Assembly: GCF_009914755.1 (NCBI RefSeq)
Contig: NC_060935.1
Length of the DNA stretch: 64,000 nucleotides
Strand: one strand, 5' to 3'
Source of the DNA: the human T2T-CHM13v2.0 reference genome, Homo sapiens
In this document: positions 16,523 to 23,472 of the stretch, piece after piece
Layout of the letters: each line of letters begins with the position of its first letter
How positions within the stretch are numbered: position 1 is the first letter of the stretch
Notes under the pieces: model-generated
Databases searched by the model: none
What the model was told of the DNA's origin: nothing
Seen by the model: only the letters and a program-made list of their open reading frames with translations
Position numbers and translations under genes: made by a program

Positions 16523-18142
16523 TCAAAAATTATTGATGTAATAAATTATACAAATGGATGTCCTGTCAATCCATCATCATTATTGAAACCATAGAGAAAA
16601 CACTGAAATACTTGACTACAAACTTATGTATGTAACAAAGTATTATAAATCAATCTACAAGGCAAAGTATAAAAATATTTGTAAATATGTTAAAGGCACT
16701 GGGTCAATATATGTAATTTGTAAAGTATTGTAATATATTAATAGAAACATGATATATGTTTAAATTTAGAAATAGCAGAGAACAGATAATTTATAAGAGA
16801 AATGTGAATGACCAATAAGCTTAGACAAAAAGTTTGTCATGATAGTAAAAGAAATTAGAATTAAAACAATATAATATCTTTCACCCCTTTTAAAATTTAT
16901 GTATTTTTTACTTTTCCATTAAGCAACTGTATGTATCTTTTTTGGTGACAACAGTCAATGTTATCATCGTTGAAACAAACACTCAGGTCATGTGGCTGGA
17001 GAGTATATATTTATTGGACGGTAATTTAGCAGTACTTGTCAACAGCCGTATATGCTTATACTCTTTGATGAACTAACAAATACAACATGGTATTAGTTAT
17101 TATGATGAAAAATTGGAAAATATAATGGATGATGATAAGTAATAAGTAAGTATAGTTTAGCTGTATAATGAGATATCTTGGGGACATTAAAAATAAAGAA
17201 TTAGAGTCAAATTTACAAGACAAAATGTTCTTGAGTTATATGCACATATGTAACTTGTAGTATTTGGTTGCATTTTCCTCCATTCATTACCTTAAATCAT
17301 ATTTTATCAGATCTGGAGGAAGTCCTCATAAACTGGGGCTAGAAGTCAGCTAAAACCATATAAAAAATTAAATTCAATTGGTTGTATTTTAAAATATCCT
17401 TAAAGTTGTATGGTCCTAGTAATATTGAATAATGCACAATCTCATCACACCCAAAGCTTTTTTGGTTCTAGATTATACAGACCAATCAATAAAAAAATCT
17501 TTTTTTTTTTTTTTTTTGCATTTACACTAATGAGTTTATTTTTTTTTATTTTATTTTTTTTATTTTTTTTTTATTATACTCTAAGTTTTAGGGTACATGT
17601 GCACATTGTGCAGGTTAGTTACATGTGCCATGCTGGTGCGCTGCACCCACTAACGTGTCATCTAGCATTAGGTATATCTCCCAATGCTATCCCTCCCCCC
17701 TCCCCCGACCCCACCACAGTCCCCAGAGTGTGATATTCCCCTTCCTGTGTCCATGTGATCTCATTGTTCAATTCCCACCTATGAGTGAGAATATGCGGTG
17801 TTTGGTTTTTTGTTCTTGCGATAGTTTACTGAGAATGATGGTTTCCAATTTCATCCATGTCCCTACAAAGGACATGAACTCATCATTTTTTATGGCTGCA
17901 TAGTATTCCATGGTGTATATGTGCCACATTTTCTTAATCCAGTCTATCATTGTTGGACATTTGGGTTGGTTCCAAGTCTTTGCTATTGTGAATAGTGCCG
18001 CAATAAACATACGTGTGCATGTGTCTTTATAGCAGCATGATTTATAGTCCTTTGGGTATATACCCAGTAATGGGATGGCTGGGTCAAATGGTATTTCTAG
18101 TTCTAGATCCCTGAGGAATCGCCACACTGACTTCCACAAGGG

Positions 18143-20119
18143 TTAAACTAGTTTACAGTCCCACCAACAGTGTAAAAGTGTTCCTATTTCTCCACATCCT
18201 CTCCAGCACCTGTTGTTTCCTGACTTTTTAATGATTGCCATTCTAACTGGTGTGAGATGATATCTCATAGTGGTTTTGATTTGCATTTCTCTGATGGCCA
18301 GTGATGATGAGCATTTCTTCATGTGTTTTTTGGCTGCATAAATGTCTTCTTTTGAGAAGTGTCTGTTCATGTCCTTCGCCCACTTTTTGATGGGGTTGTT
18401 TGTTTTTTTCTTGTAAATTTGTTTGAGTTCATTGTAGATTCTGGATATTAGCCCTTTGTCAGATGAGTAGGTTGCGAAAATTTTCTCCCATGTTGTAGGT
18501 TGCCTGTTCACTCTGATGGTAGTTTCTTTTGCTGTGCAGAAGCTCTTTAGTTTAATTAGATCCCATTTGTCAATTTTGGCTTTTGTTGCCATTGCTTTTG
18601 GTGTTTTGGACATGAAGTCCTTGCCCACGCCTATGTCCTGAATGGTAATGCCTAGGTTTTCTTCTAGGGTTTTTATGGTTTTAGGTCTAACGTTTAAATC
18701 TTTAATCCATCTTGAATTGATTTTTGTATAAGGTGTAAGGAAGGGATCCAGTTTCAGCTTTCTACATATGGCTAGCCAGTTTTCCCAGCACCATTTGTTA
18801 AATAGGGATTCCTTTCCCCATTGCTTGTTTTTCTCAGGTTTGTCAAAGATCAGATAGTTGTAGATATGCGGCATTATTTCTGAGGGCTCTGTTCTGTTCC
18901 ATTGATCTATATCTCTGTTTTGGTACCAGTACCATGCTGTTTTGGTTACTGTAGCCTTGTAGTATAGTTTGAAGTCAGGTAGTGTGATGCCTCCAGCTTT
19001 GTTCTTTTGGCTTAGGATTGACTTGGCGATGCGGGCTCTTTTTTGGTTCCATATGAACTTTAAAGTAGTTTTTTCCAATTCTGTGAAGAAAGTCATTGGT
19101 AGCTTGATGGGGATGCCATTGAATCTGTAAATTACCTTGGGCAGTATGGCCATTTTCACGATATTGATTCTTCCTACCCATGAGCATGGAATGTTCTTCC
19201 ATTTGTTTGTGTCCTCTTTTATTTCCTTGAGCAGCGGTTTGTAGTTCTCCTTGAAGAGGTCCTTCGCATCCCTTGTAAGTTGGATTCCTAGGTATTTTAT
19301 TCTCTTTGAAGCAATTGTGAATGGGAGTTCACTCATGATTTGGCTCTCTGTTTGTCTGTTGTTGGTGTATAAGAATGCTTGTGATTTTTGTACATTGATT
19401 TTGTATCCTGAGACTTTGCTGAAGTTGCTTATCAGCTTAAGGAGATTTTGGGCTGAGACGATGGGGTTTTCTAGATAAACAATCATGTCGTCTGCAAACA
19501 GGGACAATTTGACTTCCTCTTTTCCTAATTGAATACCCTTTATTTCCTTCTCCTGCCTGATTGCCCTGGCCAGAACTTCCAACACTATGTTGAATAGGAG
19601 CGGTGAGAGAGGGCATCCCTGTCTTGTGCCGGTTTTCAAAGGGAATGCTTCCAGTTTTTGCCCATTCAGTCTGATATTGGCTGTGGGTTTGTCATAGATA
19701 GCTCTTATTATTTTGAAATACGTCCCATCAATACCTAATTTATTGAGAGTTTTTAGCATGAAGGGTTGTTGAATTTTGTCAAAGGCTTTTTCTGCATCTA
19801 TTGAGATAATCATGTGGTTTTTGTCTTTGGCTCTGTTTATATGCTGGATTACATTTATTGATTTGCGTATATTGAACCAGCCTTGCATCCCAGGGATGAA
19901 GCCCACTTGATCATGGTGGATAAGCTTTTTGATGTGCTGCTGGATTCGGTTTGCCAGTATTTTATTGAGGATTTTTGCATCAATGTTCATCAAGGATATT
20001 GGTCTAAAATTCTCTTTTTTGGTTGTGTCTCTGCCCGGCTTTGGTATCAGAATGATGCTGGCCTCATAAAATGAGTTAGGGAGGATTCCCTCTTTTTCTA
20101 TTGATTGGAATAGTTTCAG
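18143..20119 (-). pseudogene. L1 ORF2 C-terminal half (aa ~493-1150: RT with FADD, CCHC knuckle); nonsense codon at Q1151, remainder continues to 17768
   Basis: 664-aa ORF containing LFADDMIVY and [18 protein letters not shown]; first in-frame ATG at 19990. Confidence 0.93.
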
Positions 20120-21900: not shown

Positions 21901-21963
21901 AGACCATCGAGACTAGGAAGAAACTGCATCAACTAATGAGCAAAATCACCAGCTAACATCATA

Positions 21964-23472
21964 ATGACAGGATCAAATTCACACATAACAATATTAACTT
22001 TAAATATAAATGGACTAAATTCTGCAATTAAAAGACACAGACTGGCAAGTTGGATAAAGAGTCAAGACCCATCAGTGTGCTGTATTCAGGAAACCCATCT
22101 CACGTGCAGAGACACACATAGGCTCAAAATAAAAGGATGGAGGAAGATCTACCAAGTCAATGGAAAACAAAAAAAGGCAGGGGTTGCAATCCTAGTCTCT
22201 GATAAAACAGACTTTAAACCAACAAAGATCAAAAGAGACAAAGAAGGCCATTACATAATGGTAAATGGATCAATTCAACAAGAGGAGCTAACTATCCTAA
22301 ATATTTATGCACCCAATACAGGAGCACCCAGATTCATAAAGCAAGTCCTGAGTGACCTACAAAGAGACTTAGACTCCCACACATTAATAATGGGAGACTT
22401 TAACACCCCACTGTCAACATTAGACAGATCAACGAGACAGAAAGTCAACAAGGATACCCAGGAATTGAACTCAGCTCTGCACCAAGCAGACCTAATAGAC
22501 ATCTACAGAACTCTCCACCCCAAATCAACAGAATATACTTTTTTTTCAGCACCACACCACACCTATTCCAAAATTGACCACATAGTTGGAAGTAAAGCTC
22601 TCCTCAGCAAATGTAAAAGAACAGAAATTATAACAAACTATCTCTCAGACCACAGTGCAATCAAACTAGAACTCAGGATTAAGAATCTCACTCAAAGCCG
22701 CTCAACTACATGGAAACTGAACAACCTGCTCCTGAATGACTACTGGGTACATAACGAAATGAAGGCAGAAATAAAGATGTTCTTTGAAACCAACGAGAAC
22801 AAAGACACCACATACCAGAATCTCTGGGACACATTCAAAGCAGTGTGTAGAGGGAAATTTATAGCACTAAATGCCTACAAGAGAAAGCAGGAAAGATCCA
22901 AAATTGACACCCTAACATCACAATTAAAAGAACTAGAAAAGCAAGAGCAAACACATTCAAAAGCTAGCAGAAGGCAAGAAATAACTAAAATCAGAGCAGA
23001 ACTGAAGGAAATAGAGACACAAAAAACCCTTCAAAGAATCAATGAATCCAGGAGCTGGTTTTTTGAAAGGATCAACAAAATTGATAGACCGCTAGCAAGA
23101 CTAATAAAGAAAAAAAGAGAGAAGAATCAAATAGACACAATAAAAAATGATAAAGGGGATATCACCACCGATCCCACAGAAATACAAACTACCATCAGAG
23201 AATACTACAAACACCTCTACGCAAATAAACTAGAAAATCTAGAAGAAATGGATACATTCCTCGACACATACACTCTCCCAAGACTAAACCAGGAAGAAGT
23301 TGAATCTCTGAATAGACCAATAACAGGCTCTGAAATTGTGGCAATAATCAATAGTTTACCAACCAAAAAGAGTCCAGGACCAGACGGATTCACAGCCGAA
23401 TTCTACCAGAGGTACAAGGAGGAACTGGTACCATTCCTTCTGAAAAAAAATCTTAAAACATCAAAGAACTGA
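21964..23472 (+). pseudogene. L1 ORF2 N-terminal half (endonuclease, linker and Z region, aa 1-494) fused to 8 flank-encoded residues
   Basis: Uninterrupted 502-aa [17 protein letters not shown]... with EN motifs QETH, GDFN, SDH; ends KNLKTSKN across the TSD. Confidence 0.93.

What the first reader, a model, noticed from the sequence alone, without database searches (positions are those of the whole stretch)
17768..23472. Split-ORF2 L1: antisense promoter and ORF0 face the RT half, sense strand carries the EN half
Seen: the inversion puts the CpG-rich 5'UTR in the middle. On - an intact ORF0 (20428-20213) lies ~95 nt upstream of an uninterrupted ORF2 half (aa ~493-1150, FADD and CCHC intact; 615 aa from ATG 19990, or 664 aa from a GTG across the junction), followed by the native 3'UTR and polyA signal. 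On + an uninterrupted 502-aa EN-containing ORF remains. Known: the L1 5'UTR has an antisense promoter (~nt 400-600) that does not need the missing first ~135 nt, and ORF0 has splice donors. Inference: the locus could make a polyadenylated RT-half mRNA, with EN encoded separately. That would be a source of RT or EN fragments from an element normally scored as dead. Caveats: the RT half lacks the Z region and the last ~124 aa, ORF1 is nonsense-mutated and the sense start site is lost.
Basis: partly seen in the sequence, partly recalled or inferred. Interest (0 to 1): 0.82.

Follow-up and report, generated by a model that had tools for sequence, protein, structure and literature searches.

The report
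Inverted young L1 retrotransposon, decaying copy
This is one young human L1 retrotransposon whose front half was flipped during insertion, so its antisense promoter points at the back half of its own enzyme gene; the layout is real, but the sequence argues against either half giving a working enzyme.

Summary
Window 17491-23454 is a single L1Hs (pre-Ta type) insertion with the structure expected from twin priming. It has perfect 11-bp target-site duplications. The non-inverted 3' part (L1 nt 3462-end, - strand) carries the poly(A). The inverted 5' part (L1 nt 139-3467, + strand) abuts it 5'-end to 5'-end, with a 6-nt overlap and 3-nt microhomology.

ORF0 and the antisense-promoter region therefore face ORF2 aa 493-1150, and ORF2 aa 1-494 stays open on the other strand.

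The functional inference is weak:
- Open frames are what a 0.43%-diverged copy gives by chance. Private coding changes are 9 missense, 3 nonsense and 6 silent, which fits neutral decay.
- The RT half lacks the NTE/Z domain.
- Its first AUG is M536, behind ORF0 and two further small ORFs. It sits in weak context and lies past named fingertip and dNTP-contact residues.
- It carries a private I642R change.
- The EN half has lost the sense start site and follows a twice-nonsense ORF1.

Split ORF2p complementation and EN fragments from dead loci are already published. No expression data could be checked. Verdict: ordinary element, neat geometry, low interest.

The parts
17491..17501 (.). Left copy of the 11-bp target-site duplication (AAAAAAATCTT on +)
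   Evidence: Longest shared flank word, found by script; sequence.
17502..17517 (-). Terminal pure poly(A) tail. The T run on + spans 17500-17517; two of its bases are shared with the TSD.
17518..17539 (-). Non-L1 tag between two A tracts: a short 3' transduction or a template switch. AATAAA at 17540-17535 lies 17 nt before the tail.
   Evidence: The 20-mer has only one other exact copy in the assembly, on contig 17. The 28/28 match covers 17512-17539, and there is no L1 within 1.5 kb of that other site.
17540..17572 (-). Degenerate A-rich tail with overlapping AATAAA signals (17575, 17564, 17555, 17540)
17573..17767 (-). L1 3'UTR. It carries the ACG diagnostic trinucleotide (pre-Ta) and a private 10-nt deletion near 17625.
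   Evidence: The meaning of the diagnostic comes from PMC7026601.
17768..18142 (-). ORF2 codons 1152-1275 plus the native stop, in frame but cut off by the upstream nonsense codon
18143..18145 (-). Private nonsense codon Q1151* (CAA to TAA)
18146..20119 (-). ORF2 codons 493-1150 (RT fingers from 493, palm with FADD, thumb, wrist, CCHC). Private changes are I642R, V777A, A827G and D929E. The first AUG is at 19990 (M536).
20117..20119 (.). Internal inversion junction: CAG/CTG microhomology that can be assigned to both 5'UTR nt 139-141 and ORF2 codon 493
   Evidence: both halves align over 20117-20119.
20120..20883 (+). L1 5'UTR nt 142 to about 906 (28 CpG). It contains both antisense-promoter regions, +200 (about 20178) and +450 (about 20428). 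The RefSeq enhancer 20344-20915 corresponds to L1 nt 366-937.
   Evidence: The promoter regions come from PMC9396940. The enhancer comes from the hub annotation in the task.
20213..20428 (-). ORF0: 71 codons plus stop, with G at -3 and G at +4. It has three residue differences from the form shared by 5 of 7 other copies.
20884..21900 (+). ORF1 with two private nonsense codons (R49* at 21028, Q259* at 21658)
21964..23445 (+). ORF2 codons 1-494 (EN, tower/cryptic region, Z/NTE with the SPGPDG octapeptide). The frame runs on into the flank to the stop at 23470-23472.
23444..23454 (.). Right copy of the 11-bp target-site duplication. It overlaps the A run at the end of the inverted segment (priming microhomology).

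Best explanation
This is one retrotransposition event of an L1Hs pre-Ta element, resolved by twin priming.

How it formed (inferred from the structure):
- The nicked bottom strand primed on the poly(A) and copied L1 nt 3462 to the end.
- The T-rich 3' end of the other target strand primed internally, at the CUGAAA of ORF2 codons 493-494, and copied back to nt 139.
- The two cDNAs were joined 5'-end to 5'-end at a CAG microhomology.
- The result is TSD, inverted 5' part, 3' part, poly(A), TSD, with the 5'UTR in the middle.

Since insertion the copy has decayed neutrally: 0.43% private substitutions, an excess of CpG transitions in the 5'UTR, and three nonsense codons.

That ORF0 and the antisense promoter face the RT half is a geometric by-product of the inversion.

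If the antisense promoter fires, the RNA would be an L1-internal version of an ordinary L1 chimeric transcript. It would carry ORF0, then two small ORFs, then a truncated ORF2 frame, and would end at one of many sense-strand poly(A) signals. Any protein from AUG 19990 (aa 536-1150) or from the GTG (aa 493-1150) is predicted to be catalytically dead. The EN half is predicted to be poorly expressed.

Shown: structure, boundaries, subfamily and mutation spectrum. Inferred: the order of priming events, transcription, and lack of activity.
For: Structure:
- Perfect 11-bp TSDs flank the whole composite.
- Poly(A) is present only at the - strand end.
- Using a natural copy as a ruler, the halves map to L1 nt 139-3467 (+) and 3462-6045 (-). 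They tile a full element with a 6-nt overlap and no loss.
- 20117-19 is shared by both alignments.
- Private substitution density is the same in both halves, 17/3326 versus 8/2539, Fisher P = 0.31.

Subfamily:
- ACG in the 3'UTR. Of 16 comparison copies, 12 have ACA, 3 ACG and 1 GAG. ACG means pre-Ta according to PMC7026601.
- UCSC RepeatMasker row in Pinson Table S1: L1HS, 0.5% divergence, repeat positions 263-3591.

Neutral decay:
- 9 missense, 3 nonsense and 6 silent private coding changes. P(6 or more silent of 18) = 0.24 under an unconstrained model.
- 5'UTR has 7/764 private changes versus 18/5101 elsewhere (P = 0.036). Four of the seven are CpG transitions.

Against function:
- Order and context of upstream AUGs.
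- Three in-frame stops between ORF0 and the RT half.
- 6 AATAAA and 3 ATTAAA inside the RT half.
- No strong splice acceptors in the A-rich sense strand: 0 at the strict threshold, 8 weak.
- NTE/Z is absent from the RT half.
- I642R falls on a residue named as the anchor of the template pocket.
- A nonsense codon in ORF1 lowers ORF2p output.
Against: - No RNA, CAGE, methylation or proteomic data could be consulted, so transcription and translation are untested in either direction.
- RefSeq annotates an enhancer over 20344-20915 (hub annotation). Some assay therefore scored this or an identical L1 5'UTR fragment as active.
- Pinson et al. report that about 17% of recent L1s with a 5'UTR give antisense chimeric transcripts in brain or glioma.
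- Transcripts starting in the +200 antisense-promoter region (12 of 36 chimeras tested there) would skip ORF0. That makes AUG 19990 easier for ribosomes to reach.
- C-terminal truncation at 1150 is not itself a bar to cDNA synthesis. The 1129-truncated ORF2p still made cDNA, and the 238-1061 core is highly active.
- No published test of an RT fragment starting at 493 or 536 was found in the passages I read.
Confidence: 0.85

Rival explanations
1. The central 5'UTR expresses an ORF0/RT-half mRNA on one strand and an EN-half mRNA on the other. The fragments retain RT or EN activity, possibly complementing each other as in the BAR assay.
For: - The EN half (aa 1-494) is almost the same length as the ENz/ENZ490 fragment. 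That fragment is stably expressed, is not cytotoxic, and supports Alu retrotransposition together with an RT fragment.
- The two halves leave no gap in the linear sequence up to aa 1150.
- The catalytic residues named in the papers (D145, D205, Y226, H230, D702, D703) fall in columns that match in the alignments.
- PCNA binding by the Z domain could be supplied in trans at 25% efficiency.
- Truncation at aa 1129 still allows cDNA synthesis.
Against: - The published RT fragment began at aa 348 and ran to 1275. This one begins at 493, or at 536 from the first AUG, and stops at 1150.
- NTE/Z, with the conserved octapeptide, sits on the wrong half.
- Untagged BAR gave only about 50 colonies even with codon-optimised, overexpressed fragments. 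The wild-type-sequence RT fragment gave a minimal signal.
- The CTS is needed for TPRT and nicking.
- The RT half carries I642R.
- Upstream ORFs and a weak AUG context hinder translation.
- ORF1 has nonsense codons and the sense start site is lost.
- The mutation pattern is neutral.
Confidence: 0.03
2. The arrangement arose after insertion, either by inversion of part of a full-length L1 or from two independent L1 insertions lying head to head.
For: Inversions between repeats do occur. The structure alone cannot give the order of events.
Against: - One pair of perfect TSDs encloses both halves, and there is one poly(A).
- The inverted segment has no tail of its own.
- The halves tile one element with a 6-nt overlap.
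- One breakpoint coincides exactly with the element/TSD boundary, with A/T microhomology, as twin priming predicts.
- Private divergence is equal in both halves.
- The missing first 138-141 nt fits incomplete reverse transcription of the second cDNA.
Confidence: 0.03
3. The only output that matters is regulatory or non-coding. The retained 5'UTR acts as a bidirectional promoter or enhancer in some cell types and gives a non-coding L1-internal antisense RNA (at most an ORF0 peptide), with no enzyme fragments.
For: - RefSeq enhancer feature at 20344-20915, equal to L1 nt 366-937 (hub annotation; mapping).
- Both antisense-promoter regions are present, with only 2 private changes in nt 400-600 (20396, 20511).
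- ORF0 is intact with a strong initiation context.
- L1 antisense transcripts that act as lncRNAs are documented.
Against: - The locus is in a gene desert: no gene within 100 kb (hub annotation). Pinson et al. find antisense-promoter activity coupled to active host loci.
- The element is in their candidate list but not in their chimera tables. Their method needs a unique flank, so it may be blind here.
- The excess of CpG transitions indicates long-term germline methylation.
Confidence: 0.2

Closest known systems
L1 5' inversions made by twin priming (Ostertag and Kazazian 2001; the paper is not held, so it is known here through citing papers)
   Same: TSDs enclose an inverted 5' segment plus a non-inverted 3' segment with poly(A). 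There is a small overlap at the inversion point and microhomology at both priming sites. PMC7026601 describes a non-reference L1Hs with the same parts list, including a 3' transduction and a second poly(A).
   Different: Here the inverted segment is unusually long (3.3 kb) and reaches nt 139 of the 5'UTR. It therefore brings the antisense promoter and ORF0 with it. How often that happens was not counted.
L1 antisense-promoter chimeric transcripts and ORF0 fusions (Speek 2001 and Denli 2015 via citing papers; Criscione 2016 PMC4908685; Pinson 2022 PMC9396940)
   Same: The same promoter regions (+200, +450), the same 71-codon ORF0 with donor-like sites, and the same logic of reading out of the 5'UTR into whatever lies upstream.
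   Different: What lies upstream is the element's own ORF2 3' half in sense orientation, not unique host DNA. No transcript has been shown for this locus. Three literature searches found no paper describing this configuration.
Bipartile Alu retrotransposition, split ORF2p (Christian et al. 2016, PMC4889948)
   Same: The EN-bearing fragment ends at aa 490 there and aa 494 here. Two separately encoded fragments leave no gap in the linear sequence.
   Different: The engineered RT fragment starts at 348 (with Z/NTE) and ends at 1275. It was codon-optimised, overexpressed, and worked well only with Gal4 tags. Here the RT half starts at 493/536, ends at 1150, and carries I642R.
Truncated EN-containing ORF2 proteins from retrotransposition-incompetent loci (Kines et al. 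2014, PMC4176336)
   Same: The idea that an element scored as dead can still encode an EN-containing fragment. Their ENz construct is aa 1-490.
   Different: Their 92 candidate loci were required to have an intact ORF1 and a normal promoter. This locus has two ORF1 nonsense codons and no sense start site.

Membership tests
L1Hs pre-Ta subfamily | ACG at the diagnostic 3'UTR trinucleotide (ACA = Ta, GAG = L1PA2 or older) | tested here: met
   The window reads ACG. The meaning of the motif is taken from passages of PMC7026601.
L1Hs pre-Ta subfamily | Very low divergence from active human L1 | tested here: met
   98.0-99.3% identity to 16 natural copies. ORF2p shows 13 differences in 1152 aligned residues against PDB sequences. 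The RepeatMasker row gives L1HS at 0.5% divergence.
Twin-priming inversion | One pair of TSDs around both segments and a single 3' poly(A) | tested here: met
   11/11 TSD at 17491-17501 and 23444-23454. The poly(A) is only at the - strand end.
Twin-priming inversion | The segments meet 5'-end to 5'-end, and the inversion point shows a small duplication or deletion | tested here: met
   L1 nt 139-3467 (+) abuts nt 3462-6045 (-), a 6-nt overlap.
Twin-priming inversion | Microhomology at the internal priming site and at the internal junction | tested here: met
   The A run is shared by the TSD and ORF2 codons 494-495 at 23444-23447. CAG at 20117-20119 is shared by both halves.
Twin-priming inversion | L1 EN-type cleavage site (TTTT/AA-like) at the first-strand nick | tested here: inconclusive
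   Read from the flanks, the nicked strand is ...TCTT/AAAA.... This is close to, but not identical with, the consensus 5'-TTTTT/AA-3' given in the abstract of PMC8565326 (listing).
L1 antisense chimeric-transcript (LCT) producing locus | Antisense-promoter regions +200 and +450 present | tested here: met
   The 5'UTR is retained from nt 139. There are 2 private changes in nt 400-600.
L1 antisense chimeric-transcript (LCT) producing locus | Transcript initiating in the 5'UTR antisense strand and continuing into the flank | not testable with these tools
   No expression data are available here. The element is listed among 9,123 candidates but is absent from the chimera tables of PMC9396940. That method needs a unique flank.
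BAR-competent split ORF2p pair | EN fragment containing EN, cryptic and Z regions (aa 1-347 or more) | tested here: met
   aa 1-494 is open, with 5 substitutions.
BAR-competent split ORF2p pair | RT fragment beginning at aa 348 (with Z/NTE) and reaching the native C-terminus | tested here: not met
   It starts at 493 (GTG) or 536 (AUG) and stops at 1150.
Active ORF2p RT core (aa 238-1061, Baldwin et al.) | Contiguous tower/NTE, fingers, palm, thumb and wrist | tested here: not met
   aa 238-492 lie on the other strand. Core definition; NTE as part of the RT core.
Active ORF2p RT core (aa 238-1061, Baldwin et al.) | Catalytic FADD and C-terminal limit at or beyond 1061 | tested here: met
   FADD is intact and the frame is open to 1150.

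The most novel reading that the evidence does not exclude
In hypomethylated cells the central 5'UTR fires in both directions. The EN-Z half (aa 1-494) and the RT half (aa 493-1150) are both made, and they reassemble non-covalently across the fingers domain. That would give a natural split ORF2p able to make cDNA or mobilise Alu from a locus that every catalogue scores as dead.
Probability: 0.02. Interest if true: 0.7.

Novelty: new member of a known kind. Interest (0 to 1): 0.22.

Why it matters
That would bear on cytosolic cDNA, Alu mobilisation and DNA damage in tumours and ageing.

The evidence here points the other way for this copy, so its practical value is modest:
- It is a clean, fully resolved example of twin priming with a near-full-length inverted arm and a short 3' tag.
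- It has a unique junction by which any antisense-promoter transcript could be recognised unambiguously in long-read data.
- It is a reminder that sense-strand ORF2 3' reads or peptides need not come from full-length L1 mRNA.

Tried and rejected
1. ORF0-RT fusion by stop-codon readthrough. The two share a frame, but three stops lie between them. Rejected.

2. ORF0-RT fusion by splicing. Donor-like sites lie at 20323, 20238 and 20175, scored with a rough matrix whose frequencies I recalled. No acceptor passed the strict filter (0 found). There were 8 weak ones, the best of which would remove most of the RT. Not pursued.

3. Selection keeping the frames open. Rejected on the mutation spectrum.

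4. A second example in the same window. The L1 at 51167-57632 is a normally oriented older copy broken by insertions. Rejected.

5. Progenitor search with the 3' tag. This gave one other site, on contig 17, with no L1 beside it. The source was not found in this assembly.

6. Genome-wide census of inverted copies that keep the antisense promoter. Not possible: own-genome searches score only the 40 best candidates, and pattern gaps are limited.

8. Papers not held: Denli 2015, Speek 2001, Ostertag and Kazazian 2001, Clements and Singer 1998. What I say of them rests on citing papers or on recall.

9. A phrase search of supplement tables failed. Number-prefix searches then found the locus.

10. 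No structure or complex prediction was run. A split of a solved protein would pass by likeness to known structures and decide nothing.

11. PMC7746726 held none of the terms sought.

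
Full report
WHAT IS THERE

On the - strand, the 664-residue frame 18143-20137 aligns from its 7th residue to ORF2p 493-1150 of the solved human structures. There are 8 mismatches in 658 residues, and FADD and the CCHC motif are intact. 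A single in-frame stop at codon 1151 is followed by codons 1152-1275 and the native stop.

On the + strand, the 502-residue frame 21964-23472 is ORF2p 1-494, with 5 mismatches in 494, plus 8 residues read from the flank. ORF1 (from 20884) is in frame throughout but carries two nonsense codons, at aa 49 and aa 259. ORF0 (20428-20213) is an intact 71-codon frame.

Of the 40 scored among 1438 candidates in the assembly, only the window itself spans the junction. The other 39 match the 5'UTR side alone.

HOW IT AROSE

An 11-bp direct repeat (AAAAAAATCTT) lies at 17491-17501 and 23444-23454. I used a natural full-length copy as a ruler.
- The + arm is L1 nt 139-3467 (window 20117-23445).
- The - arm is nt 3462-6045 (window 20119-17547).

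The two arms therefore tile one element. Six bases (ORF2 codons 493-494) are present twice, and three bases (20117-20119) can be assigned to either arm. A primer named by position in PMC5860796 places the first unambiguous 5'UTR base at nt 142 in 6 of 7 natural copies; the primer was not found in the seventh.

Only the - arm has a poly(A). The inverted arm ends in an A run that overlaps the TSD. Private substitution density does not differ between the arms (17/3326 versus 8/2539, P = 0.31).

This is the structure described for twin priming in the papers I could read. The original paper was not held. Post-insertion inversion, or two separate insertions, would not give one TSD pair, one tail and exact tiling.

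WHICH L1, AND HOW OLD

The diagnostic 3'UTR trinucleotide is ACG. Among 16 natural copies fetched for comparison, 12 read ACA, 3 ACG and 1 GAG. PMC7026601 states that ACG marks L1Hs pre-Ta, ACA marks Ta, and GAG marks L1PA2 or older.

Identity to the 16 copies is 98.0-99.3%.

I defined a private difference as a site where at least 14 of the 16 copies agree and at most one shares the window's base. I dropped two end-gap columns (23446-23447) that were artefacts of my segment boundary. That leaves:
- 17 private differences in 3326 nt of the + arm (three of them shared by one copy);
- 8 in 2539 nt of the - arm;
- one 10-nt deletion in the 3'UTR.

In total this is 25 substitutions in 5865 nt, or 0.43%.

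The UCSC RepeatMasker row for the + arm is reproduced in Table S1 of PMC9396940. It reads L1HS, 0.5% divergence, repeat positions 263-3591, in the hg19 reference. The insertion is therefore not peculiar to CHM13. Converting 0.43% into a few million years rests on a substitution rate that I recall and did not test here.

IS THE OPENNESS MEANINGFUL?

No. Of 18 private coding changes, 9 are missense, 3 nonsense and 6 silent. An unconstrained model of these same frames expects 21-27% silent and 4-5% nonsense changes. The chance of 6 or more silent changes in 18 is 0.24. With 3 nonsense changes in 1613 codons, stretches of 494 and 658 codons stay open with probabilities of about 0.40 and 0.29.

The 5'UTR has more private changes than the rest (7/764 versus 18/5101, P = 0.036). 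Four of the seven are CpG transitions. It keeps 28 CpGs, against 29-33 in seven other copies. That is the mark of long-standing germline methylation, as in other L1 copies.

COULD THE ANTISENSE PROMOTER MAKE AN RT-HALF mRNA?

The geometry allows it. PMC9396940 places antisense start regions at about +200 and +450 of the 5'UTR. Both are retained, at window positions of about 20178 and 20428, and only two private changes fall in nt 400-600. Criscione et al. put a YY1 peak and GRO-seq signal at about nt 450.

Several things stand in the way.

Translation from a +450 start. The RNA would meet the following AUGs in order:
- ORF0 (G at -3, G at +4);
- an AUG at 20166 (16 codons);
- an AUG at 20067 (6 codons);
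- AUG 19990 (T at -3, A at +4).

ORF0 is in the same frame as the RT half, but three stops intervene.

Premature polyadenylation. The RT half carries 6 AATAAA and 3 ATTAAA before the native end. PMC5860796 notes premature polyadenylation signals in L1 transcripts.

Splicing. Splicing into the RT half is unlikely. The strand is 39.5% A, and I found no acceptor with a good pyrimidine tract. The scoring matrices were rough and recalled.

Promoter context. The element sits in a gene desert (hub annotation). Pinson et al. found antisense activity coupled to active host loci, with about 17% of recent 5'UTR-bearing L1s producing chimeras. This element is in their list of 9,123 candidates but not in their chimera tables. 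That is weak evidence, because their method needs a unique flank.

On the other side:
- RefSeq marks 20344-20915 (L1 nt 366-937) as an enhancer (hub annotation). I could not see on what assay that rests.
- Starts in the +200 region would skip ORF0.

WOULD THE PRODUCT WORK?

Baldwin et al. purified an active RT as residues 238-1061. They place the tower at 239-440 and describe the R0/NTE-0 lid over the template. Thawani et al. count the NTE (the old Z domain) as part of the RT core, with contacts to template and cDNA. PMC13103738 gives the EN linker/NTE as aa 240-505.

In this locus all of that lies on the EN half, including the conserved octapeptide region around SPGPDG.

A product from the GTG would begin at 493. 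A product from the first AUG would begin at M536 (residue 50 of the 664-residue frame, whose residue 7 is aa 493). It would therefore lack I515, I517 and I533 of the fingertips and R531, which bonds the incoming dTTP.

One of the four private missense changes in the RT half is I642R. Baldwin et al. single out I642 as the anchor of the palm loop that forms the pocket for the n-3 template base.

The C-terminal cut at 1150 is the lesser problem. ORF2p truncated at 1129 still made cDNA, while truncation at 950 did not. However, loss of the CTS reduced TPRT and nicking.

THE EN HALF

It matches the published ENz/ENZ490 fragment almost exactly in extent. That fragment is expressed in HeLa cells, is not cytotoxic, and supports Alu retrotransposition when an RT fragment 348-1275 is co-expressed.

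Here, though:
- the first 138-141 nt of the 5'UTR are gone, including the YY1 site at nt 13-21;
- 27 ATGs precede the ORF2 ATG on the + strand from 20120;
- ORF1 has two nonsense codons. Kines et al. report that a premature stop in ORF1 markedly reduces ORF2p from the bicistronic RNA, and for that reason they demanded an intact ORF1 in their 92 candidate loci.

WHAT IS KNOWN AND WHAT IS NEW

Already in print: twin-priming inversions, antisense chimeric transcripts and ORF0, EN fragments from dead loci, and split-ORF2p complementation.

Three full-text searches combined twin priming or inverted L1 with the antisense promoter, ORF0 or ORF2. None found a paper describing an antisense promoter aimed at the element's own ORF2 through an inversion. 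Supplements of bioRxiv preprints and PDFs were not searchable, so this absence is provisional.

I file the locus as a further member of a known kind. Its geometry is uncommon but expected, and its functional reading is improbable.

SIDE OBSERVATION

Between the degenerate A-rich tail and the terminal pure A run lies a 20-22 nt non-L1 tag. It sits 17 nt downstream of an AATAAA. Its only other exact copy in the assembly is on contig 17, where the match extends to 28/28 and no L1 lies within 1.5 kb.

This reads as a short 3' transduction from a progenitor that is absent from this assembly, or as a template switch from the end of another RNA.

Noticed in passing
window 17512-17539 (- strand); L010 1495-1522: A non-L1 tag sits between the element's A-rich tail and the terminal poly(A). 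It matches one other place in the assembly 28/28 (contig 17, about 55.095 Mb), where there is no L1 within 1.5 kb. It is probably a short 3' transduction from a progenitor absent from CHM13, or a template switch.
   Followed up: partly
window 19671 (- strand), ORF2 codon 642: A private I642R change. I642 is named in the ORF2p crystal-structure paper as the anchor of the palm loop that forms the pocket for the n-3 template base.
   Followed up: partly
window about 17625 (- strand): A private 10-nt deletion in the 3'UTR, absent from all 16 comparison copies. It lies in a short internally repeated stretch, so replication slippage is a likely cause.
   Followed up: no
window 20428-20116 (- strand): ORF0 and the ORF2 3' half are in the same reading frame (a one-in-three chance) but are separated by three stop codons.
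   Followed up: yes
window 51167-57632 (+) and 7077-9306 (-): A second, older full-length L1 in normal orientation (89-95% identical to the young ruler copy, broken by insertions; listed as L1PA4 in the hg19 RepeatMasker row), and an older ORF2 fragment (79% identical).
   Followed up: partly
window 20344-20915: The RefSeq enhancer feature corresponds to L1 nt 366-937, that is, the antisense-promoter region through the first codons of ORF1. The assay behind it, and whether its reads map uniquely, could not be checked.
   Followed up: no
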